A stretch of DNA of 64,000 bases from positions 121-64,120 of the forward strand of contig CAXGWU010000011.1 of assembly GCA_964013565.1 (NCBI GenBank). The letters run 5' to 3'. The number at the start of each line of letters is the position of its first letter. The first letter of the stretch is position 1. Below the pieces are notes generated by a model, which made no database searches, was not told the origin of the DNA, and worked only from the letters and a program-made list of their open reading frames with translations. The DNA is from an uncultured Oligoflexia bacterium (GTDB lineage: Bacteria > Bdellovibrionota > UBA1018 > UBA6935). Made by a program: the position numbers and the translations under genes. Of this stretch, positions 2,714 through 19,186 are shown one piece after another.

Positions 2714-3415
2714 ATGAGGAATGCTCTCATATCTGTAGCTTTAGCCTTTGTACTGACCGTGCCCGGAGCTTGTGCGGGGCTCATCGATTGCATTCTCGGT
2801 ACTAGGAAATCCGTAGATGCAGACAGAAAAAAACTAGTTTCGACCCTAAGCAGTAGGAATTTAAAGAAAGAAGTTCTGCAACTATTTCGTGCTGACGAAA
2901 AGCAGCTAATCGATTCGATCGGATCGTTTCCCACCAGAGCCCAATTCAACAACATGGCAGACGGATCGATTGTTTATTTTAACGGTCACTACTACGTAAG
3001 AAACGGGCAGAGAATCAAAATGGTTACAGAAGGAGATGTCCTAAAAGAGAGCTTTACCGGAAAAATTCGGGTAACGATGCTGACTCATGATAGAGCAGGA
3101 GGAGCAAGAATTGGATTCGAGCTCTTTAGGGAGAATGAAACTAAAGGTTTGGGTACCTACCGATCTATTCACGACCTTTTCCCGGACGACTTGATACCTC
3201 CATTTGAGAAATTGGGAACAAATTATGAAGATGCATCGGCCCTTCGAATTAAACAATTAGAATCCTTACTTCAAAGGGCGAGTGATTTCAAAAAAGAGCT
3301 TAACGCGACTGGCGTGTATCGCTTGCAAGGAGAAGCTGCGCGTTCGAATGTACTTCCTGCCGATATCGACCCACTGATTGATAGCATTTATTCTGAGCTG
3401 TCCCGTACCCCGTGA
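2714..3415 (+). CDS. Hypothetical secreted protein
   Basis: Signal peptide MRNALISVALAFVLTVPGACA. No family recognised. Confidence 0.45.
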   Translation: MRNALISVALAFVLTVPGACAGLIDCILGTRKSVDADRKKLVSTLSSRNLKKEVLQLFRADEKQLIDSIGSFPTRAQFNNMADGSIVYFNGHYYVRNGQRIKMVTEGDVLKESFTGKIRVTMLTHDRAGGARIGFELFRENETKGLGTYRSIHDLFPDDLIPPFEKLGTNYEDASALRIKQLESLLQRASDFKKELNATGVYRLQGEAARSNVLPADIDPLIDSIYSELSRTP

Positions 3416-3989: not shown

Positions 3990-4220
3990 AACAACTCGAT
4001 GCTCGGCTAAAGAACGTGGAGCTTCACAACTATTTTGGCGATCACAAGCCCCTGGGCGATGGATTGCTTGAGTTATAAGTGGAAGAATGGAAGGCGTGTT
4101 TACTACACGCTGATCGTAAAGAAGGAAGTGACCTTGGTTTTACTGGGAGGACTAAAAAATGCCCAAGAAAAAGATATCAAAAAAGCGCGCAAAATCCTCA
4201 AAAGAGAAACCTCAAGCTAA
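3990..4220 (+). pseudogene. HI1419/TIGR02683-type addiction-module killer protein, N-terminally truncated and frameshifted
   Basis: Frame A 3990-4046 reads LKQLDARLKNVELHNYFGDHKPLGDGLLEL*. The frame of 4035-4220 continues …SYKWKNGRRVYYTLIVKKEVTLVLLGGLKNAQEKDIKKARKILKR. Joined, they match the killer consensus ([36 protein letters not shown]…VLLLxGGDKxxQxxDIKxAxxL). The first ~30 aa are absent because the gene begins directly at the higA stop, and there is a frame break near 4046. Confidence 0.6.
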
Positions 4221-4485
4221 GGGGTACAAAGCAGGAACGGATGTCTCGATCGATGGCCTAAAGGACGCTATTATTGAGGCTCTATTTGAGGCAGATTACG
4301 ATACCTTCAAGGGGTGCATTGCCATCTTACTAGATAAGCGCGACTACGCTGAGATCACGGCTCGAACGGGTCTTTCTAAGAGCACCCTCTATCGGATGTG
4401 TGAACCCGATTCCAATCCCACTCTTGAGAATATCGGTAAGGTACTCAGCTATATCAATGATCTGGATTCTGCTGACGCTGCGTAG
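4159..4485 (+). CDS. HI1420/TIGR02684-type addiction-module antidote protein (HTH)
   Basis: DAIIEALFEADYDTFKGCIAILLDKRDYAEITARTGLSKSTLYRMCEPDSNPTLENIGKVLSYI matches the family pattern (AAYLxAALEDGDPxLxxxALGDIARARGMSxLAxxTGLSRESLYKALSxxGNPTxxTxLKVLxALG). The ORF is intact. The true start may lie downstream of the K-rich N-terminal extension. Confidence 0.65.
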   Translation: MPKKKISKKRAKSSKEKPQAKGYKAGTDVSIDGLKDAIIEALFEADYDTFKGCIAILLDKRDYAEITARTGLSKSTLYRMCEPDSNPTLENIGKVLSYINDLDSADAA

Positions 4486-11222: not shown

Positions 11223-12428
11223 ATGACTGAAGCAACACATTCATTTTGGTTAGATGTACCACTAAAGACTGGATTAAAGGAAGGACTTCCTCAGTCGACC
11301 AGTATTGTGGTTATTGGTTCAGGACTTGCTGGGGCGAGTGCTGCTTATTTTTTAGAAAAACATGGTTTTGAGGGAATTACGCTCGTAGATTATCTTCCCG
11401 AAGAGGCTGCTTCTTATCGAAACTGTGGTCATATTCTTTATGGAACTGTTGAATCAATGAAGGCACTTTGTGAGATTCATGGGGCAGAAAAAGCTAAGGA
11501 ATTGTGGCAGTTTTCAATCGATATTTGTAATCAAGTTGAACAGACTCAGAAAGACTTATCTTTGGAGATGGACTATCGAAGAAAAGGCTATCTGGTGATT
11601 GCAGACTCTGAAGTTGAAGATCGGGAATGCCGAGAATCTGTGGACTTGTTGAATAAAATGGGATTTCAATCTGAATATGTGGATTCAAAAACAATTCAAG
11701 ATTTGGGATTTAAAAATTGTTTTGGAGCTCGGTATGAAGAAGGATCTGCTGACGCTCATCCTGTAAAATTTAGAAATGGTTTAGTAGATGCTTTTTTAGA
11801 AAAGGGAGGTCAGTACTACTCTGGCGTTGAGGTTTTGGATTTAGAAGAAACTTCTGATGGTGTGCGAGTAAAGACCGCTCAAGGAGAGATTCAAGCAGAT
11901 GCGGTAGTGATTGCGGCAAATGCTTATTCTCCTTTATTCTCTGGTTTTTTTAAATCCAGAGGATTGATTGATCCTTTTCGAGGTCAAATTATTACTTCAA
12001 AACCCTTAAAGCACTCTTTTCCAGTTCAATATCCTCATTCTTTTGATCATGGATACGAATATGCCGTAGTGACGCCTGATAATCGTTTAATGATTGGGGG
12101 ATGGAGAAATCATACAGATGGAGAGATGGGAACTTATTCTTTAAAAACAAATAGTTTTGTAGAAGAGGGACTGAAGAAATTTGCTCGGGATCATTATCAG
12201 ATTGAAGAAGAGATTGAATGGGAGTATAGCTGGTCTGGCATCATGGCAGCGAGTCGAACAGGGCTTCCGTTTATAGGAAACACGAGTTCTCCTCGGATTT
12301 ATTCCGTTTGTGGATTTACTGGGCATGGGTTCTCTTGGGCTCATGGGTCTGCCAAGCTTTTATCAGATATTATGGCTGGAGCACCGGTTCCAGAAGTAGC
12401 GAAGCATTTTAATCCTCGGGTGTTATGA
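11223..12428 (+). CDS. FAD-dependent oxidoreductase (DAO family; sarcosine/pipecolate-oxidase-like)
   Basis: VVIGSGLAGASAAYFL Rossmann motif near the N-terminus. 401 aa. Divergent from the saccharopine genes. Confidence 0.65.
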   Translation: MTEATHSFWLDVPLKTGLKEGLPQSTSIVVIGSGLAGASAAYFLEKHGFEGITLVDYLPEEAASYRNCGHILYGTVESMKALCEIHGAEKAKELWQFSIDICNQVEQTQKDLSLEMDYRRKGYLVIADSEVEDRECRESVDLLNKMGFQSEYVDSKTIQDLGFKNCFGARYEEGSADAHPVKFRNGLVDAFLEKGGQYYSGVEVLDLEETSDGVRVKTAQGEIQADAVVIAANAYSPLFSGFFKSRGLIDPFRGQIITSKPLKHSFPVQYPHSFDHGYEYAVVTPDNRLMIGGWRNHTDGEMGTYSLKTNSFVEEGLKKFARDHYQIEEEIEWEYSWSGIMAASRTGLPFIGNTSSPRIYSVCGFTGHGFSWAHGSAKLLSDIMAGAPVPEVAKHFNPRVL

Positions 12429-12446
12429 GAGGAAGGGTTTGAGTAA

Positions 12447-14663
12447 GTGACGACAAAAAAGAAAACTGTTGCCAAAAAGAAGAAAACGACGACAAAAAAA
12501 ACGTCTGTTTCAAAGAAAAAAACAACCACAAAAAAGAAGGCAGTAAAGAAGAAAGCCGTTTCTAAAAAAACAGCGGTTGGATCAACTAAAGACACCGTTT
12601 CAAAAAAGACAGTTGCAAAGAAAACCGTCGCAAAAAAAACACTTCCAAAAGAAGAGTTAAAGAAAAGAGAGCCTGTAAAAAACAGCGCATCTGAAAAAAA
12701 AGATTCTTCCAAAGTGAGTATGAAGCCAATGGAGAGAACTGAAACTTCTCAATATGTAGCATCAGAAACAGAATCTTACCCTAAAAAGAGACCCATTCAT
12801 TCTGAAGGTTTTTCAAAGAAACCCTGGAACCCTCGACGACAAGATAGAGATTTTCAACCGAGATCTTTTCAACAAAAAGAGGGTTACTCTAAAAAGACAT
12901 TTCATCATAAAAAGAAAAATGGGAATCAAAAGTTTAAATCAAAGCACCCAAACCAAAAGAATAAAAACTTTAATAGAAAAGGCGATGTGAATGGAAATGT
13001 TCTTCCAGGAGTTAAAACAGCTTCTGCAGTAGTTTTTCAGCAGCCGTCACGTTATCGAAAAATGTTAGAGCTCCTAGAGCAAATTTCTGAATATATGAAA
13101 TTGGCAGGAGAGAATCCATTTAAAATCAAGGCATTTGATAAGGCTTATTCTATTCTTTCTGAAAGAAAAGATGCAATGGACCGAATCAATGCAGGGACAT
13201 TGATGGAGTTAGATGGAATTGGAAAAGGAATTAATGAAGTCGTAACCGAATTTGTGAAAACCGGAAAAAGCACCACTTTAACTGAACTTCAAAAAGGGCT
13301 TCCCGAGGGGCTCGTTGAATTAGTTAAAATTCCAGGTTTAGGCCCAAAAAAAGCAATGACGATTATCGAAGAGCTTTCAATAAAAACCATTGGTGAACTT
13401 GAGTATGCTTGTAGAGAGAATCGTTTACTTAAGATTAATGGGTTTGGTGAAAAGGTTCAGGAAAAAGTTCTTCAAGGAATTACTTTTTTGAAATCAAGTG
13501 AAGGCAAAATAAAGTGGATCGACGCAAAACCTATTACGGGGGAGTTGCTTGGAGCGATTGATCGAGCCACTGGAACTCGTGTTGAGGTTGCAGGTCAATT
13601 TAGAAGAAAGCTCGAGGTGATTTCTGAATTTGATTTTGTACTCGAAGGAGATGAAGAAGATTTAGAAAAGGCAAAAGAAGCAGTTGATCAATGGAAGTAT
13701 CAAACGCGTAGGAAAACTCCTGTAAATATTCATTTGGCGACTGCAGATAATTTTGGAAGTGAATGGGTGAAGCGAACTTCTTCAGAGGATCATTGGAAGG
13801 CCTATGATGGAGACAAAATTCAAGCAGCTAGTGAACCTGAGTTTTATAGAGAGCTTGGGCTTGAGTGGGTTTCTCCTGAAATGAGAGAAACGTCTGAAAC
13901 AGTTCAATTAGCAAAATCGGGAGAGCTTAATGAAGTGCTTCCTACCAATGGGATTAGAGGTGTTTTTCATACCCATACCACTGCTTCGGATGGGGCAAAT
14001 ACTCTTGAGGAGATTGTCGAAAAAGCCTACGAGCTTGGATATGAATTTATTGGAATCTCAGATCATTCACAAAGTGCTTTTTATGCACAAGGCTTGTCCG
14101 AAGAAAAGTTAAAAGAGCAGAAAAAGGAAGTGGATCGTGTTCAAAGACTGTACCCAGACATTCGTATTTTTTGGGGAATTGAAAGTGACATTCTGAAAGA
14201 TGGTTCTTTAGATTATCCAGATTCAATTCTCAAAGAGTTTGATTTTGTAATTGCCTCGGTTCATTCAAGATTTGGAATGGATGAAGAAACAATGACTCAA
14301 AGAATGGTTCAGGCAATTCGAAATCCTTATACCCGAATGATTGGTCATATTTCTGGTCGTCTTATTTTAGGGAGAGATGAGTATCCAGTAAATATGGAAA
14401 CTCTTATCGAGGAAGCTGCAAAGCATGATGTCGCCATTGAAATTAACGCAAATCCATCCCGCCTTGATATTGATTGGAGATGGGGCCCAACGCTAAGAAA
14501 ATATGGAACCTTAGTTTCAGTCAATCCAGATGCACATGACTTAAAAGGATTAGAGGATACTCATTATGGTGTCGTTGTTGCTCGAAAGGCATTGATTCCT
14601 CAAAGTAAAGTCATCAATGCACGTTCGATTGATGAAGTAGAAAAATGGCTCAAAAGAAAATAG
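12447..14663 (+). CDS. polX: DNA polymerase X family protein with C-terminal PHP domain and an N-terminal ~200-aa lysine-rich histone-H1/AlgP-like tail
   Basis: GTG start. Residues 1-200 are K/T/A/V-rich repeats (KKKTTTKK, KKTVAKKT…). Pol beta-like HhH motifs then follow (GIGKGINEVV, IPGLGPKKAMTIIEEL). PHP signature GVFHTHTTASDG…ISDHS is present. Confidence 0.75.
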   Translation: MTTKKKTVAKKKKTTTKKTSVSKKKTTTKKKAVKKKAVSKKTAVGSTKDTVSKKTVAKKTVAKKTLPKEELKKREPVKNSASEKKDSSKVSMKPMERTETSQYVASETESYPKKRPIHSEGFSKKPWNPRRQDRDFQPRSFQQKEGYSKKTFHHKKKNGNQKFKSKHPNQKNKNFNRKGDVNGNVLPGVKTASAVVFQQPSRYRKMLELLEQISEYMKLAGENPFKIKAFDKAYSILSERKDAMDRINAGTLMELDGIGKGINEVVTEFVKTGKSTTLTELQKGLPEGLVELVKIPGLGPKKAMTIIEELSIKTIGELEYACRENRLLKINGFGEKVQEKVLQGITFLKSSEGKIKWIDAKPITGELLGAIDRATGTRVEVAGQFRRKLEVISEFDFVLEGDEEDLEKAKEAVDQWKYQTRRKTPVNIHLATADNFGSEWVKRTSSEDHWKAYDGDKIQAASEPEFYRELGLEWVSPEMRETSETVQLAKSGELNEVLPTNGIRGVFHTHTTASDGANTLEEIVEKAYELGYEFIGISDHSQSAFYAQGLSEEKLKEQKKEVDRVQRLYPDIRIFWGIESDILKDGSLDYPDSILKEFDFVIASVHSRFGMDEETMTQRMVQAIRNPYTRMIGHISGRLILGRDEYPVNMETLIEEAAKHDVAIEINANPSRLDIDWRWGPTLRKYGTLVSVNPDAHDLKGLEDTHYGVVVARKALIPQSKVINARSIDEVEKWLKRK

Positions 14664-15295
14664 ATCCAGATCTTCTTCGAATGAAGCGGATTTTAAAAGC
14701 ATTAAAAAAAGAGTATCCAGAATCAAAGTGTTCCCTTTATTATGAAACACCCTTTCAGTTGCTTGTTGCGACTATTTTATCCGCCCAATGTACGGATGCT
14801 AGAGTCAATCAAGTCACTCCAGTTCTTTTTGCTCAATACCCCGATGCATACTCGATGAGTCAAACAACACAAAAAAAAATAGAAAAAATCATTCGATCGA
14901 CGGGATTTTATCAATCCAAGGCGAAGTCTTTACTTTCGACATCAAAAGATCTTGTTGAGTTTCATGGTGGAGAGGTTCCTAAAGATCTTGATGCGCTGAT
15001 TGAGCTTCGCGGTGTTGGCAGAAAAACTGCAAATGTCGTTTTAGGGGAGGCTTATGGTATCCCTGGATTAGTTGTTGATACTCATGTTGGAAGAATTTCT
15101 CGAAGAATGGGGTTTACTGATGCAACCAATCCCGTGATTGTTGAAAGGGAAATGATGGAGATTGTTCCCAAAAAAGACTGGGTGATCTATTCTCATCTTT
15201 TAATTGATCATGGTAGGGCGGTTTGTACTTCAAGAAAAGCAAAGTGTGATGACTGTGTTTTTTGGCAGGATTGTCCTAAAATAGGAGTTTCTTAG
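14645..15295 (+). CDS. nth: Endonuclease III
   Basis: HhH-GPD region LVATILSAQCTDARVN. C-terminal CTSRKAKCDDCVFWQDC 4Fe-4S cysteine cluster. Confidence 0.9.
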   Translation: MAQKKIDPDLLRMKRILKALKKEYPESKCSLYYETPFQLLVATILSAQCTDARVNQVTPVLFAQYPDAYSMSQTTQKKIEKIIRSTGFYQSKAKSLLSTSKDLVEFHGGEVPKDLDALIELRGVGRKTANVVLGEAYGIPGLVVDTHVGRISRRMGFTDATNPVIVEREMMEIVPKKDWVIYSHLLIDHGRAVCTSRKAKCDDCVFWQDCPKIGVS

Positions 15296-15349: not shown

Positions 15350-15586
15350 ATGACACCTGATGAACTTAAAATACGATTAGAAGCGCTTGGGCCAGATACT
15401 CAAGTAGAAGTGGATGACTTGACTGGCACCCAGAATCACTATCAAGCGACGATTGAGTCTTCTGTTTTTGAAGGAAAGAGTATGATTCAACAACATCAGA
15501 TGGTTTATGCTCTCGTAAAAGAAGAGATGGCTTCAAATGAAGTTCATGCTTTGAGTTTAAAAACTTCAGTTCCAAAAAAAGGATAA
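15350..15586 (+). CDS. bolA: BolA-family protein
   Basis: 78 aa with the BolA-like layout: LEALGPDTQVEVDDLTGTQNHYQATIESSVFEGKSMIQQHQMVYALV. Confidence 0.65.
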   Translation: MTPDELKIRLEALGPDTQVEVDDLTGTQNHYQATIESSVFEGKSMIQQHQMVYALVKEEMASNEVHALSLKTSVPKKG

Positions 15587-15590
15587 TTTT

Positions 15591-15920
15591 ATGATGAATG
15601 ATCAAACAAAAACTAAAATTGAGTCTTTTATTTCTTCTAAACCAGTGGTCCTTTTTATGAAAGGATCCCCTGAGTTTCCGATGTGTGGATTTTCAGCTAA
15701 AGTTGTTGAACTTTTAGCTTCTACAGGAATGGATAGGAATCAATTAGCATCTTTAGATGTTCTTGAGGATCCAGAGGTAAGAGAAGGAATTAAAGAGTTT
15801 TCTTCTTGGCCGACTCTTCCTCAGCTTTATGTAAAAGGACAATTTATCGGTGGATGTGACATCGTAATGGACCTTGCAGAAAAAGGTGAACTTTCAGATC
15901 TTGTCAGTGAGTTTAAATAA
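15591..15920 (+). CDS. grxD: Monothiol glutaredoxin (Grx4/GrxD type)
   Basis: PVVLFMKGSPEFPMCGFS active-site motif (CGFS). Canonical BolA partner. Confidence 0.85.
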   Translation: MMNDQTKTKIESFISSKPVVLFMKGSPEFPMCGFSAKVVELLASTGMDRNQLASLDVLEDPEVREGIKEFSSWPTLPQLYVKGQFIGGCDIVMDLAEKGELSDLVSEFK

Positions 15921-15922
15921 TT

Positions 15923-17971
15923 TTATTTATTTGCATAATTAAAAAAATCATTCGCAAATCGAGATCCTTGTTTACGATGTTCGTGCATCATCAGATCGAC
16001 AAACCGAATGCAACTCAGCACATATGAGTCTTCATTGAAGAGGAAGTGCTCGGTAGGGAGGAATGTATCTTCTTTTTCTTTGAGGTCGTCTTGTTTATGA
16101 GAGGATTCTCTTACTTGTTTTTTTATTTCTTTTAAAAGCACGATTGTTTCAGGGGGCATCTTTTTTTTATTTTTATGGCCGATCCGTTTGTATTCAAAAA
16201 AGATCTTTTCTTCTATTTCAATCCTTTTGTCGAGCATGTCTTGTAGGATGAGAAAAAGGTAGCTAGGGGGTTCTAGGGTGCCGTATTCATAGAGTGTTCC
16301 CTTAAGGAAGGACGTTTCGTCTAATTCGAGTTCCCCCAGTAATCCGCTTGAACAGGTTTCTTTAAATTTTTCTGTAAGAGATTCAAAGTCTTTTATAGAT
16401 TCAATGACAGCGCTATGAGGAGAAGGAGGGCGTATATGAAATTCTGTATTCTCAAAAAAAGATTTAATTTGAATACACTTAGCTAATCGACTTTGATCTG
16501 TGTTTTTTACGCAGTCCTCGTATGCGACTTCAGAAGCATTCATAATTGTCTTTTGTTGTTCTAGAGATTGATTTCTTGGTTTTTCGTCGAGTTTGATATT
16601 GAGTCCTGAGAGCTCTTCGATGTTAGGAAACTCGCCAGAATTGTTAATAATTTTTTGATATTCAAAATAAATAACTTGATCATCGGGACTTAAAAGCGAG
16701 AGAACATAAAGGTAAATCAAAGGTTTTGTGTCAAAATCTTTTAGCTCCATTCCGAGTTGGGTTGATTGAGGAAAGGTATGGTACTCCTCGAGTTCTTTGA
16801 GGAGGATATCTCTTATGATGTCGACGAAGTCTTTGTTTCTGAAATTTTTTAAAAATCCCGTTAGTTCCGCTGCTTGAAAAAGAGAAAGGGATGAGTGAGA
16901 GTTTCGAAGTTGCTCATTGAGTTTTGGAATGTTTTCTATAAAATAATCCCCATCAAAATTAAGATTGTAAAAAAGATGAACGAAGAACTCTGATTGAGGC
17001 TTTGTATAAAACTCAATGAGAGTTTTATAGTATTGACGAGTGTAGAGACAAAAATTTTGCTTCAAACGCTTCAAACGATCGTATGGAAAATGACATTCAA
17101 AACTATCTTCAAAATCTTTCCACTCTTTAATGAAGTAGGGGTAGATCTTACTAAAAGTATCGATATGAGAAATTCCTTTGGATTGAAAGGAATTTATTTT
17201 TGGACTAATTGGCGCCATTTGATTAAATTTTTCGGTTTTACGATTTAAAGAAAAACTTTCTTTGGTAAGGTAGTGAAAAACATGATCTACAGAAGAAAGT
17301 TCATCCATATAATTTTCTTGAAACTTGAGGACTTCTTCTGAAGAAGTATTGAGATCGTAGAGTCGAAGTGCAAGAATTCTGAGATAAGGTTCTTTTAACT
17401 CAATCTCTTCAGGAAGAGATTCCATGGTGAATTTATAGAGTTCATATCCGGTCAAATCTCTTGATTCTTTGAGATAGGTATCTATTTTTTTTTCGAGATC
17501 TAAAAATTCAATTTTTTCAGGGGGGTAGAAACTTCCAAATAAATGGGCTTGAGTGACTGCAAATGAGATTCTGGGAAAGAACTCTGGTGTTTTATGAGTG
17601 AGTTTTTTTTCAATTTGATCAAGATAAGCTTGGTATGGAGTCAGTGCTTGGTATTGAATCAGCGCTTTTGATAGAGAGTCGTGAGTTTTAAAGTCACTAT
17701 CAAGCCAATGAGAATAGAGTTGATCGTCGTATGAAGTCTGATTGACCTCTTCTATAGAGGATTGAAACTGAGTCTTATAAGATGAAAAATATAGATTTCT
17801 TTTATTTCGAAAAAGGATCCATTGAAATTCCCGATAATCGCTTGCTGATTTTTTTCTAATCTTTACCATCAGTTCGGATTCTTTAGGGCTTTCGGTAGGG
17901 TTTTCGCCTTCGCCATCGCATGCAGCAAAACTAAGAGCGATGATTAGACCAAATACAGTTTTAATTTTCAT
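15923..17971 (-). CDS. Hypothetical lipoprotein (682 aa)
   Basis: Lipobox-like MKIKTVFGLIIALSFAACDGEG. No enzymatic motif recognised. Confidence 0.45.
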   Translation of the reverse strand: MKIKTVFGLIIALSFAACDGEGENPTESPKESELMVKIRKKSASDYREFQWILFRNKRNLYFSSYKTQFQSSIEEVNQTSYDDQLYSHWLDSDFKTHDSLSKALIQYQALTPYQAYLDQIEKKLTHKTPEFFPRISFAVTQAHLFGSFYPPEKIEFLDLEKKIDTYLKESRDLTGYELYKFTMESLPEEIELKEPYLRILALRLYDLNTSSEEVLKFQENYMDELSSVDHVFHYLTKESFSLNRKTEKFNQMAPISPKINSFQSKGISHIDTFSKIYPYFIKEWKDFEDSFECHFPYDRLKRLKQNFCLYTRQYYKTLIEFYTKPQSEFFVHLFYNLNFDGDYFIENIPKLNEQLRNSHSSLSLFQAAELTGFLKNFRNKDFVDIIRDILLKELEEYHTFPQSTQLGMELKDFDTKPLIYLYVLSLLSPDDQVIYFEYQKIINNSGEFPNIEELSGLNIKLDEKPRNQSLEQQKTIMNASEVAYEDCVKNTDQSRLAKCIQIKSFFENTEFHIRPPSPHSAVIESIKDFESLTEKFKETCSSGLLGELELDETSFLKGTLYEYGTLEPPSYLFLILQDMLDKRIEIEEKIFFEYKRIGHKNKKKMPPETIVLLKEIKKQVRESSHKQDDLKEKEDTFLPTEHFLFNEDSYVLSCIRFVDLMMHEHRKQGSRFANDFFNYANK

Positions 17972-18127: not shown

Positions 18128-19186
18128 ATGCTCATGACGCGTCTTCTTTGTTTTATCTTAGCTCTTCTTACTTCTGAGGTTAGTTTTGCGACAGAAAAAA
18201 CGAAAAACCATCAGGCTTGCCAAGCGTTGTTTAGAGCGTTTGAAAGAAGTCATTCTGTTTTTCGAGGAAAGACTTACGGAGTGATTCAAGAGCTTTCTGC
18301 TATCAGAAAACACAATCTTAGAGTACGAGACGTAAAGCCAGATGTTTATTTTTTGAATGTAAACTCAGAACATACTTCTCAAAGGAAAAAAGTGGCTTCT
18401 CAAATTTTAGGGATTGAACGTCATTATGAAATTGCAGGCTCTGAAGAGGCTCCAGAGTTTAAGGTCAGAGGGTTTCGTTTAGAAGGAGAGCAGCAAATTG
18501 AAAATTTCCTCTCTGAAATTGAAAGTTTTCAAGAAGATTTTGGAAAAATGATTAAAGATCAAAAAAAGTTTCTAGGTAATCCGAATTCTTTTTTTTACAA
18601 GTTTGTTACGTCTTCGATGCTTTCGGTTGGAGTCTTTTTTTTAATTTACCCTTTTATCAATCAATCTTCAGAGGGTTGGTTGGTTTCAATTCCAGTCCTC
18701 TTGATGAATTATCCTGCACTTTTAAAGAAAGGGACTTTTTTGTTTTTAAAGGACCTTGAAAGTAATCAAATGACTTTAAATTTACGAAAATCTTTTGAAT
18801 CTCTCAAACAACACGAAGGATGGAGCTATCAGTCTGAATCATTTGTGTTTTCTCGAGGATCACAAAAGCAAATCAACCAGCTGAGCTCTTCCCCTGAAGA
18901 AAGATATTCGCAGTTGTATGCCATCGATGAGAATGAATCATTTAATGATTTTCAAATGCGGCTTCCTCTTTTTAAGAGGTTTAATCGAAACTGGAAAGAT
19001 CTCAAAAAAGAGTGGGTGGGGGTGGATTTCATGATGATGAGGAACGCAGGGAGACCTGTGGAATTATTCGTTGTTCTTCGAAGCAGCGGTGAAAAGCCGA
19101 AGTTCCCCAGAAAGAAAGCCGCTAGAAAAGAAAAAACCCTTATTGAACAAGCACAAGGCTCATGGGTTCCGGTTCGAGTCCGTTAG
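18128..19186 (+). CDS. Hypothetical protein with signal peptide and internal hydrophobic segments
   Basis: MLMTRLLCFILALLTSEVSFA signal. Mid-protein hydrophobic stretch VGVFFLIYPFI. Confidence 0.4.
   Translation: MLMTRLLCFILALLTSEVSFATEKTKNHQACQALFRAFERSHSVFRGKTYGVIQELSAIRKHNLRVRDVKPDVYFLNVNSEHTSQRKKVASQILGIERHYEIAGSEEAPEFKVRGFRLEGEQQIENFLSEIESFQEDFGKMIKDQKKFLGNPNSFFYKFVTSSMLSVGVFFLIYPFINQSSEGWLVSIPVLLMNYPALLKKGTFLFLKDLESNQMTLNLRKSFESLKQHEGWSYQSESFVFSRGSQKQINQLSSSPEERYSQLYAIDENESFNDFQMRLPLFKRFNRNWKDLKKEWVGVDFMMMRNAGRPVELFVVLRSSGEKPKFPRKKAARKEKTLIEQAQGSWVPVRVR

What the first reader, a model, noticed from the sequence alone, without database searches (positions are those of the whole stretch)
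12447..14663. PolX/PHP DNA polymerase fused to a ~200-aa lysine-rich histone-H1/AlgP-like N-terminal tail
The continuous ORF starts with KKKTTTKK / KKAVSKK / KKTVAKK repeats for about 200 residues. It then enters a canonical PolX (HhH motifs, palm) and a C-terminal PHP 3'-5' exonuclease domain. Bacterial PolX proteins normally lack such a tail. The tail would give strong non-specific DNA or nucleoid binding and could tether the repair polymerase to chromatin-like nucleoid structures. The poly-A-rich coding sequence also produces a spurious F-rich minus-strand ORF (12341-12712).
Basis: seen in the sequence. Interest (0 to 1): 0.6.

Follow-up and report, generated by a model that had tools for sequence, protein, structure and literature searches.

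The report
Lysine-rich tail on polymerase-dead PolX nuclease
A marine Bdellovibrio-like bacterium encodes a DNA-repair enzyme of the PolX family that has probably lost its polymerase activity but kept its nuclease, and uniquely carries a 200-residue, highly positively charged, disordered N-terminal tail that probably tethers it to DNA; this is a lineage-specific twist on known themes, not a new kind of system.

Summary
Window 12447-14663 (+) is one uninterrupted 738-codon ORF. Residues 1-199 are a polycationic, disordered tail (26% Lys, pI 10.6). Residues 200-738 are a confidently folded PolX plus PHP protein.

The tail is very probably translated:
- The frame is open where the other two forward frames carry 12 and 17 stops.
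- Codon usage fits only this frame.
- The repeat periods are multiples of 3.
- A Shine-Dalgarno-like motif precedes the GTG start, and none precedes Met206.
- Two near-identical assemblies and two independent gene calls agree.

The tail is unique. It is absent from the 120 best homologues and the 150 nearest 50%-cluster representatives. None of 84 related loci could encode it at the DNA level.

The catalytic triad is E394/D396/N427, the dNTP motif is lost, and palm and fingers are shortened. This makes it a "noncanonical PolX" in the sense of Prostova 2022, likely polymerase-dead. All nine PHP metal ligands and six DNA-path residues are intact.

The gene overlaps endonuclease III (nth) by 19 nt, and this pairing is conserved in relatives.

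Best reading: a DNA-tethered nuclease that cleans 3' ends and AP sites for base excision repair. It is a new variant of known kinds, of modest interest.

The parts
12427..12437 (+). Shine-Dalgarno-like purine motif GAGAGGAAGGG, ending 9 nt before the GTG start
   Evidence: Read directly from the sequence. Several other window genes show GGAG/AGGA motifs at a similar distance. No such motif precedes Met206 or Met92.
12447..14663 (+). Complete 738-codon ORF: tailed noncanonical PolX-PHP protein (83.8 kDa)
   Evidence: Identical to NCBI MBN22859.1 and to a Tara gene-catalogue entry, both called at 738 aa. NCBIfam PolX equivalog NF006375 scores 444 bits against a cutoff of 426.
12447..12656 (+). 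Tail module 1 (residues 1-70): degenerate TTKKK / (T/A)V(A/S)KK repeats; 40% Lys, pI 10.8, no aromatic residues
   Evidence: Tandem and direct DNA repeats with periods of 36, 39 and 15 nt, all multiples of 3. Composition. AAG codons interrupt the A-runs: the longest A-run is 8, with P=0.044 and 0.004 under two null models. pLDDT is below 50.
12657..13043 (+). Tail module 2 (residues 71-199): basic and polar low-complexity linker (K/N/Q/S/R with F/Y/W/H), pI 10.4
   Evidence: Codon-usage log-likelihood is +29.5 bits in this frame, and every other frame on both strands scores -31 or lower. No secondary structure and pLDDT 29-46. No homologue found.
13044..13571 (+). 8-kDa domain plus helix-hairpin-helix DNA-binding modules (residues 200-375), including GIGKG, GLGPKK and the bacterial-type GFGxK motif
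   Evidence: Pfam HHH_8 and HHH_5. G297, G299, K302, G332 and F333 are invariant in 52 sequences. pLDDT is 85-97 for residues 201-380, and the first helix spans 200-219.
13572..13802 (+). Degenerate palm and fingers remnant (residues 376-452): triad E394/D396/N427; dNTP motif replaced by KRTSSEDHW (442-450)
   Evidence: Alignment with canonical controls that show DDD or DDE. Segments are 48 against 58-62 aa and 21 against 39-40 aa. No Pfam palm hit. This region is unaligned to Tth and Dr PolX by phmmer.
13959..14663 (+). PHP nuclease domain (residues 505-738) with an intact active site
   Evidence: Nine metal ligands (H508, H510, D515, H540, E579, H606, H634, D695, H697) are invariant in 52 sequences. 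The equivalents of B. subtilis PolX F440/R469/R474/N498/R503/K545 are F609/R638/R643/N667/R672/K714, all present (PMC6616362).
14645..15295 (+). nth (endonuclease III), overlapping the PolX stop by 19 nt; a co-operonic partner
   Evidence: TIGR01083 nth equivalog scores 252 bits against a cutoff of 211.7. Pfam HhH-GPD match. The C-terminal Cys-X6-Cys-X2-Cys-X5-Cys motif is read from the translation. The same overlapping pair occurs in L002-L005 and in 23 of 84 related loci.
12341..12712 (-). F-rich antisense shadow ORF (not a gene)
   Evidence: It is the reverse complement of the AAA/AAG-rich coding sequence. It overlaps the 3' end of the DAO gene (11223-12428), has no Pfam hit, and its extension into tail module 2 scores negative.

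Best explanation
One gene encodes one 738-residue protein.

Shown from sequence:
- The C-terminal 539 residues are a bacterial PolX-PHP enzyme of the 'noncanonical' type.
- The DNA-gripping helix-hairpin-helix modules and the Mn-dependent PHP nuclease site are fully intact.
- The polymerase triad (EDN), the dNTP pocket and parts of palm and fingers are degenerate.

Inferred: the protein acts as a nuclease rather than a polymerase. [quoted passage not shown]

Its gene is translationally coupled to endonuclease III. That enzyme's beta-elimination leaves blocked 3' ends, which the PHP activities are known to clean. The pair therefore most likely forms a base-excision-repair module.

The N-terminal 199 residues are a lineage-specific, intrinsically disordered polycation. 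It was built partly by in-frame expansion of short Lys-rich repeats.

Inferred by analogy with other lysine-rich tails on DNA enzymes: the tail gives strong, sequence-independent electrostatic affinity for DNA. This would keep the otherwise acidic enzyme (pI 5.4) on the nucleoid and aid lesion search or end bridging.
For: Single translated ORF:
- The frame is open while the other two forward frames hold 12 and 17 stops. None of 50,000 shuffles stayed open.
- Codon-usage log-likelihood is +54 bits in this frame, against -34 or lower in all five others.
- Repeat periods are 36, 39 and 15 nt.
- AAG codons limit A-runs to 8 or fewer.
- An SD-like motif precedes the GTG start and none precedes Met206.
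- The AF2 first helix begins at residue 200, upstream of Met206.
- The Tara catalogue and NCBI both aa.
- A second assembly differing by 3 SNPs in 20.9 kb has identical gene DNA.

Tail disorder: pLDDT is below 50 and no secondary structure is predicted for residues 1-199, while the core scores mostly 84-98.

Noncanonical core. Deinococcus noncanonical PolXs are polymerase-dead 3'-5' exonucleases (PMC9226535).

PHP intact. The four PHP activities are documented in PMC6616362.

nth coupling.

Analogies: the PAKKA tail of M. smegmatis Ku contacts DNA and promotes end joining (PMC3553676). The Pro/Ala/Lys-rich N-terminus of T. brucei Pol beta-PAK accompanies localisation to the kDNA disk (PMC8375306).
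Against: - There is no expression, proteomic or biochemical evidence.
- The tail occurs in a single population (one MAG lineage). No relative closer than 57% identity was found, so purifying selection on the tail cannot be measured.
- For residues 1-90, codon usage alone does not separate the sense frame (+24.5 bits) from one antisense frame (+23.9 bits).
- The SD-like motif lies slightly far from the GTG start.
- In M. smegmatis Ku, removing the Lys-rich tail increased DNA affinity, so 'more lysines means tighter binding' is not guaranteed (PMC3553676).
- The E394/D396 pair is partly retained, so residual nucleotidyl transfer cannot be formally excluded.
Confidence: 0.6

Rival explanations
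1. The tail is translated but is a recent, essentially neutral low-complexity N-terminal extension. It would have arisen by capture of an upstream start and slippage expansion of A-rich repeats, and would have no dedicated role in repair.
For: It is unique to one lineage and absent from all relatives. It has no homologue anywhere. It has repeat structure typical of slippage. The function of the comparable PAK domain is itself unknown, and that domain is missing in T. cruzi and L. infantum orthologues (PMC8375306).
Against: Six hundred nucleotides held open against a per-codon stop probability of 0.07 points to selection on the frame. So do genome-typical codon usage and AAG placement that avoids long A-runs. 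A +45 polycation attached to a DNA enzyme will bind DNA whether or not it was selected for that.
Confidence: 0.22
2. The real protein starts at an internal codon (Met206, or Met92/Met95). All or part of the A-rich region would then be an untranslated leader between the DAO gene and polX.
For: All homologues start 3-28 residues before the conserved LLEEI helix. Met206 sits exactly there. GTG is a rarer start codon than ATG, and no experimental data exist.
Against: The open frame has P of about 3e-7. Tail module 2 has positive coding potential only in this frame. No SD-like motif precedes Met206, and no promoter-like site was found between 12447 and 13062. Helix 1 is predicted from residue 200. 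Two annotation pipelines aa.
Confidence: 0.12
3. An assembly or sequencing error in a homopolymer fused a separate small histone-like gene to polX.
For: The tail contains five A-runs of 7-8 nt. These are the kind of site where indels arise.
Against: The Tara gene-catalogue entry and the NCBI protein give the same 738-aa product, and that product is on record on four contigs. One of these contigs, the NCBI MAG contig L001, differs from the window at 3 SNPs elsewhere yet has identical gene DNA. No orthologous locus has a histone-like gene upstream of polX. No stop codon or restart signal lies at any plausible junction.
Confidence: 0.03
4. The tail has a role other than DNA tethering. Possibilities are autoinhibition by folding back onto the acidic core, binding of RNA or polyphosphate, or driving condensates.
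For: The tail (pI 10.6) and core (pI 5.4) carry opposite charges. Module 2 has aromatic plus basic 'sticker' composition. In Ku, removing the tail raised DNA affinity (PMC3553676).
Against: There is no specific evidence for any of these roles. None of them excludes DNA binding.
Confidence: 0.1

Closest known systems
Noncanonical (polymerase-inactive) prokaryotic PolX, e.g. Deinococcus radiodurans PolX (PDB 2W9M; Prostova et al. 2022, PMC9226535)
   Same: Same five-part architecture. Both have an altered catalytic triad, a shortened palm and fingers, a lost dNTP motif and a fully conserved PHP nuclease. 2W9M is the best PDB sequence hit (1.2e-74), and Foldseek gives probability 1.0.
   Different: D. 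radiodurans PolX and all surveyed PolXs (mean 573 +/- 24 aa) have no long N-terminal extension. This clade (Bdellovibrionota/Oligoflexia MAGs) is not mentioned in the main text of that survey. The triad here is EDN rather than AEE.
Canonical bacterial PolX (Thermus thermophilus 3AU2/3AU6; Bacillus subtilis YshC)
   Same: 8-kDa and HhH modules, the GFGxK motif, and the PHP domain with nine ligands and the basic DNA path. TM-score to 3AU6 is 0.80. The NCBIfam PolX equivalog passes its cutoff.
   Different: The DDD triad and YFTGS..HN motif are absent here, the palm and fingers are truncated, and there is an extra 199-residue tail.
Trypanosoma brucei mitochondrial DNA polymerase beta-PAK
   Same: An X-family enzyme with a long N-terminal low-complexity lysine-rich domain, located on condensed DNA (the kDNA disk) (PMC8375306). 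It is the nearest functional analogue of 'PolX plus a basic tail'.
   Different: It is a eukaryotic, active polymerase without a PHP domain. Its tail is rich in Pro, Ala and Lys, whereas this one is rich in Lys, Thr, Ser and Val (only 11 Pro and 10 Ala in the first 205 residues). The tails have independent origins and no sequence homology.
Lysine-rich low-complexity tails of bacterial DNA proteins (M. smegmatis Ku and Hlp/HupB PAKKA repeats; Chlamydia Hc2)
   Same: Repetitive, polycationic, disordered appendages that contact DNA and modulate end joining or compaction. They are said to have 'evolved repeatedly' on unrelated DNA-binding proteins (PMC3553676). There is a weak compositional match to HC2.
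   Different: Those tails are C-terminal, have different repeat units, and sit on Ku or HU rather than PolX. The HC2 matches are far below the family thresholds, so this is not membership.

Membership tests
Bacterial/archaeal PolX (PolX1: 8 kDa + polymerase core + PHP) | N-terminal 8-kDa domain and HhH DNA-binding motifs, including the bacterial GFGxK | tested here: met
   Pfam HHH_8 at 1.4e-12 and HHH_5 at 4.8e-8. GLGPKK and GFG residues are invariant.
Bacterial/archaeal PolX (PolX1: 8 kDa + polymerase core + PHP) | C-terminal PHP domain with the nine-residue metal site | tested here: met
   H508, H510, D515, H540, E579, H606, H634, D695 and H697 are invariant in 52 sequences. Pfam PHP at 1.5e-11.
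Bacterial/archaeal PolX (PolX1: 8 kDa + polymerase core + PHP) | Overall sequence and fold similarity above curated thresholds | tested here: met
   NF006375 scores 444 bits against a cutoff of 426. PDB PolX hits at 1e-73 to 1e-74. Foldseek TMt is 0.80 to 3AU6.
Canonical (polymerase-active) PolX | Three acidic residues in the palm catalytic triad | tested here: not met
   The triad is E394/D396/N427. Canonical controls in the same alignment show DDD or DDE, and clade members show SDR, RQE, KPE, GDR and others.
Canonical (polymerase-active) PolX | dNTP-binding motif (YFTGS..HN) and a full-length palm (about 81 aa) and fingers | tested here: not met
   The motif reads KRTSSEDHW. Segments are 48 against 58-62 aa and 21 against 39-40 aa. 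No Pfam palm hit.
Noncanonical PolX (Prostova et al. 2022) | Altered triad and/or deletions in palm and fingers, with a conserved PHP domain and 8-kDa domain | tested here: met
   The definition is taken from PMC9226535.
Noncanonical PolX (Prostova et al. 2022) | No DNA polymerase activity; active 3'-5' exonuclease | not testable with these tools
   This needs purified protein. It is inferred from the sequence only.
Histone H1-like Hc2 / AlgP-type lysine-repeat nucleoid proteins | Family-level sequence match above the curated threshold | tested here: not met
   Pfam HC2 scores 22.2 bits against a cutoff of 40. NCBIfam Hc2 scores 17.7 bits against 135. A tail-only homology search found nothing. 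No Pro/Ala-rich KPAA-type repeat is present.
Endonuclease III (downstream partner gene) | HhH-GPD fold, nth equivalog score, and Fe-S Cys-X6-C-X2-C-X5-C motif | tested here: met
   TIGR01083 scores 252 bits against a cutoff of 211.7. The Cys motif is read from the translation.

The most novel reading that the evidence does not exclude
A bacterium has independently built a 'chromatin-tethered' repair nuclease. It fused an H1-like polycationic disordered domain to a polymerase-dead PolX, converging on the trypanosome Pol beta-PAK design. The tail would then be an adaptive nucleoid-anchoring or end-bridging (possibly condensate-forming) device. It would reprogramme how a base-excision-repair 3'-end-cleaning enzyme finds lesions in a compacted predator nucleoid.
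Probability: 0.3. Interest if true: 0.45.

Novelty: new variant of a known kind. Interest (0 to 1): 0.3.

Why it matters
If the tail is functional, it would be a clean natural experiment on how a disordered polycation changes target search and retention of a repair nuclease. It would also be a bacterial counterpart to the unexplained PAK domain of trypanosome Pol beta-PAK.

Two further points came from this check:
- The whole Bdellovibrionota/Oligoflexia PolX clade sampled here has a degenerate polymerase site. This extends the 'noncanonical PolX' group beyond the phyla in which it was described.
- polX is translationally coupled to nth in many lineages. That points to base excision repair 3'-end cleaning as a core PolX-PHP role, alongside the non-homologous end joining (NHEJ) link proposed earlier.

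Neither point changes a paradigm. The tail itself is so far seen in only one population.

Tried and rejected
- **Tail-only homology search.** No hit at E <= 1e-3, not even informative low-complexity matches. The tail therefore cannot be tied to any family.
- **Single-protein scans of genome contigs and metagenome contigs.** These used tail-specific peptides (KVSMKPME, NQKNKNFN) and found no close relative, so no dN/dS test of the tail was possible.
- **Exact-sequence look-up of P0001.** Not on record. The identical P0121 gave the MAG contig instead.
- **Cluster member P0122.** This 45-aa 'cysteine protease' is unrelated and is clustering noise.
- **'Separate histone-like gene upstream in orthologues'.** Rejected. 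The upstream neighbours are gap-pgk-tpi, secreted or unknown proteins, or sensor kinases, and none is Lys-rich.
- **Antisense F-rich ORF as a real gene.** Rejected. It is a shadow of the Lys codons, overlaps the DAO gene and has no family hit.
- **Promoter and terminator scan.** It found fewer promoter-like sites than shuffles and only weak terminator-like hairpins inside the tail, so it is uninformative.
- **First shuffle script.** It timed out and was rerun in simpler form.
Full report
**Observation**

The window carries an uninterrupted ORF at 12447-14663 (+) of 738 codons. It starts with GTG immediately after an in-frame TAA.

- The first 205 codons contain 53 lysines and have net charge +48. 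Residues 206-738 have net charge -19.
- Residues 1-70 are degenerate TTKKK/(T/A)V(A/S)KK repeats: 40% Lys, pI 10.8 and no aromatic residues.
- Residues 71-199 are a heterogeneous basic and polar low-complexity stretch: 19% Lys, pI 10.4 and 11 aromatic residues.
- The core, residues 200-738, has pI 5.4.
- Pfam places HHH_8 at 206-274, HHH_5 at 291-341, a sub-threshold thumb match at 451-481 and PHP at 507-668. No palm model matches.

The described object is therefore real and sits at the stated coordinates.

**Is the tail coding and part of the same protein?**

Several independent lines say yes.

- The two other forward frames contain 12 and 17 stops between 12400 and 13100. The ORF frame has none.
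- With the tail's own base composition, the per-codon stop probability is 0.07. This gives P of about 3e-7 for 205 open codons and 1.4e-3 for the first 90. None of 50,000 shuffles stayed open.
- A codon-usage log-likelihood trained on 38 other window genes gives +54 bits for the ORF frame. All five other frames score negative. For residues 91-205, only the ORF frame is positive.
- The internal DNA repeats have periods of 36, 39 and 15 nt, all multiples of three.
- AAG codons are placed so that no A-run exceeds 8 nt. P is 0.044 when the observed Lys codons are permuted and 0.004 with the genome's AAA preference. This is as expected for a sequence that must stay in frame.
- A purine-rich Shine-Dalgarno-like motif (GAGAGGAAGGG, 12427-12437) precedes the GTG. 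Nothing comparable precedes Met206 or Met92.
- The AlphaFold model built on 52 sequences starts the first helix at residue 200, six residues before Met206. It leaves residues 1-199 without secondary structure at pLDDT below 50. The core scores mostly 84-98.
- The Tara gene catalogue and NCBI (MBN22859.1, 'histidinol-phosphatase', Bdellovibrionaceae/Pseudobdellovibrionaceae MAG GCA_002722705.1) both call the same 738-aa product.
- That MAG contig differs from the window at 3 positions in 20,913 nt, none of them in this gene. Two near-identical but non-identical assemblies therefore agree.

One caveat applies. For residues 1-90, codon usage alone cannot separate the sense frame from one antisense frame (+24.5 against +23.9 bits). 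That antisense ORF (12341-12712) overlaps the upstream DAO gene and has no family match. It is the expected shadow of AAA/AAG codons.

**Is the tail unusual?**

Yes.

- Apart from the identical Tara entry, the 120 best homologues among 5.8 billion proteins are 522-587 aa long. They cover only about 70-75% of the query, and the closest is 57% identical.
- Thirteen of the longest homologues were inspected, and none has a basic N-terminus.
- In an exhaustive HMMER scan of 1.84 billion cluster representatives, the 150 best hits are 516-608 aa long. Their matches begin at query residues 198-217 and subject residues 1-28.
- In 84 related loci, the longest possible in-frame upstream extension is 73 residues. 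Most are under 20, and none is lysine-rich. This check works at the DNA level and so does not depend on gene calling.
- The tail alone finds no homologue.
- Published surveys give bacterial PolX a length of 573 +/- 24 aa (PMC9226535).
- Orthologous loci have no histone-like gene upstream. The tail is therefore not a conserved neighbour that became fused here.

**What is the core?**

It is not a canonical polymerase. I aligned the core with clade members and with canonical PolXs recovered in the same search.

- The catalytic triad columns read E394/D396/N427 in the query and DDD or DDE in the canonical controls.
- Clade members show an unconstrained mixture (SDR, RQE, KPE, GDR, AEE, RDH and others).
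- The dNTP-binding YFTGSKxHN motif reads KRTSSEDHW.
- The palm segment is 48 aa against 58-62 aa. The following fingers segment is 21 aa against 39-40 aa.
- phmmer leaves residues 404-452 unaligned to the Thermus and Deinococcus structures.

This is the definition of the 'noncanonical PolX' group. That group makes up 27.5% of prokaryotic PolXs, and its Deinococcus members are polymerase-dead but efficient 3'-5' exonucleases (PMC9226535; see also PMC12926913).

By contrast, the nine PHP metal ligands are invariant across 52 sequences: H508, H510, D515, H540, E579, H606, H634, D695 and H697. The equivalents of the six B. subtilis PolX residues that form the basic DNA path to the PHP site are all present: F609, R638, R643, N667, R672 and K714 (PMC6616362). 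The HhH motifs, including the bacterial GFGxK, are conserved. Foldseek confirms the PolX fold, with Thermus 3AU6 at TM 0.80 and Deinococcus 2W9M. The NCBIfam PolX equivalog passes its cutoff.

**Context**

The gene's last 19 nt overlap the start of a bona fide endonuclease III. That gene passes the TIGR01083 cutoff and has the HhH-GPD fold and the Fe-S cysteine motif. bolA and a monothiol glutaredoxin follow it.

The same overlapping polX-nth pair, with a 16-19 nt overlap, occurs in all four homologue loci inspected. It also occurs in 23 of 84 related loci from several phyla, including 8 of the 11 closest.

Endonuclease III is a bifunctional glycosylase/AP lyase that leaves a blocked 3' end (established knowledge). 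PHP domains of PolX have AP-endonuclease, 3'-phosphodiesterase, 3'-phosphatase and 3'-5' exonuclease activities (PMC6616362). The simplest reading is a coupled base-excision-repair module. Nth excises and nicks, and PolX-PHP, held on the gap by its HhH modules, cleans the 3' end. Another polymerase then fills the gap.

**Mechanism of the tail (inferred)**

A 199-residue, +45 disordered polycation on an acidic DNA enzyme will bind DNA electrostatically and without sequence preference. Two precedents exist.

- The PAKKA repeats of M. smegmatis Ku and Hlp contact DNA and promote end joining. They led the authors to propose that such tails 'evolved repeatedly' on unrelated DNA proteins (PMC3553676).
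- T. brucei Pol beta-PAK is an X-family enzyme with a Pro/Ala/Lys-rich N-terminal domain, and it sits on the kDNA disk (PMC8375306).

I therefore favour nucleoid tethering or facilitated search, at overall confidence about 0.6 for the combined statement.

The alternatives are:
- a translated but neutral slippage-born extension (0.22);
- an internal start (0.12);
- another role such as autoinhibition or RNA/polyP binding (0.10);
- an assembly artefact (0.03).

The histone-H1/Hc2/AlgP label is only compositional. Pfam HC2 scores 22 bits against 40, and NCBIfam Hc2 scores 17.7 bits against 135.

**Verdict**

The tail and its uniqueness hold, but 'canonical PolX' does not.

The object combines two known themes, a noncanonical PolX and a lysine-rich DNA tail. 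The combination was not found in any other bacterial PolX examined here, and it is seen in one uncultured marine Bdellovibrio-like population only. I class it as a new variant of a known kind, with interest about 0.3.

Noticed in passing
window 14645-15295, plus L002-L007, L009, L010 and 15 further loci: polX and nth (endonuclease III) form a conserved pair with a 16-19 nt stop/start overlap in the loci inspected. They are adjacent in 23 of 84 related loci across Bdellovibrionota/Oligoflexia, Omnitrophota, Acidobacteria, Syntrophorhabdia and others. Endonuclease III is not mentioned in the main text of the 2022 PolX survey, which stressed NHEJ co-occurrence.
   Followed up: partly
A1/A2 alignments (P0002-P0139): Every member of the Bdellovibrionota/Oligoflexia PolX clade that was sampled has a non-acidic, highly variable polymerase triad and a shortened palm and fingers. 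The clade as a whole appears to be noncanonical PolX.
   Followed up: partly
window 49806-54191 (- strand): A low-GC island (GC 0.27-0.28 against about 0.38 elsewhere) holds a four-gene operon. It encodes a 693-aa ABC/SMC-like ATPase with weak PADLOC matches (mad3, ATPase-Toprim, AriA) plus three ORFs (332, 271 and 163 aa) with no family hit. It may be a horizontally acquired defence-type module.
   Followed up: partly
L079 about 2815-3000 (Bacillota MAG JBFLYC010000025.1): Upstream of this PolX the frame is open for about 62 extra codons, with a different low-complexity repeat (ESENRPSNQNH...). This may be another, unrelated N-terminal low-complexity extension on a PolX.
   Followed up: no
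window 15350-15920: bolA and a monothiol glutaredoxin (grxD-type) lie directly downstream of nth. bolA also follows nth in L002. This hints at a link between Fe-S and redox genes and the Fe-S glycosylase.
   Followed up: no
window 4156-4485 (+): A small 109-aa protein with a Lys-rich N-terminus (MPKKKISKKRAKSSKEKPQAK...) and a sub-threshold match to an addiction-module antidote HTH family. It is the only other Lys-rich N-terminus among predicted genes in the window.
   Followed up: partly
window 15923-17971 (-), 18128-19186 (+): Large ORFs of 682 aa and 352 aa have no Pfam match. The 682-aa ORF starts with a lipoprotein-like signal (MKIKTVFGLIIALSFAAC).
   Followed up: no
window 6835, 15992, 18752 vs L001: The window differs from GCA_002722705.1 contig PBMP01000095.1 at only 3 of 20,913 aligned bases. 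The window therefore comes from a second, near-identical assembly of the same population.
   Followed up: yes
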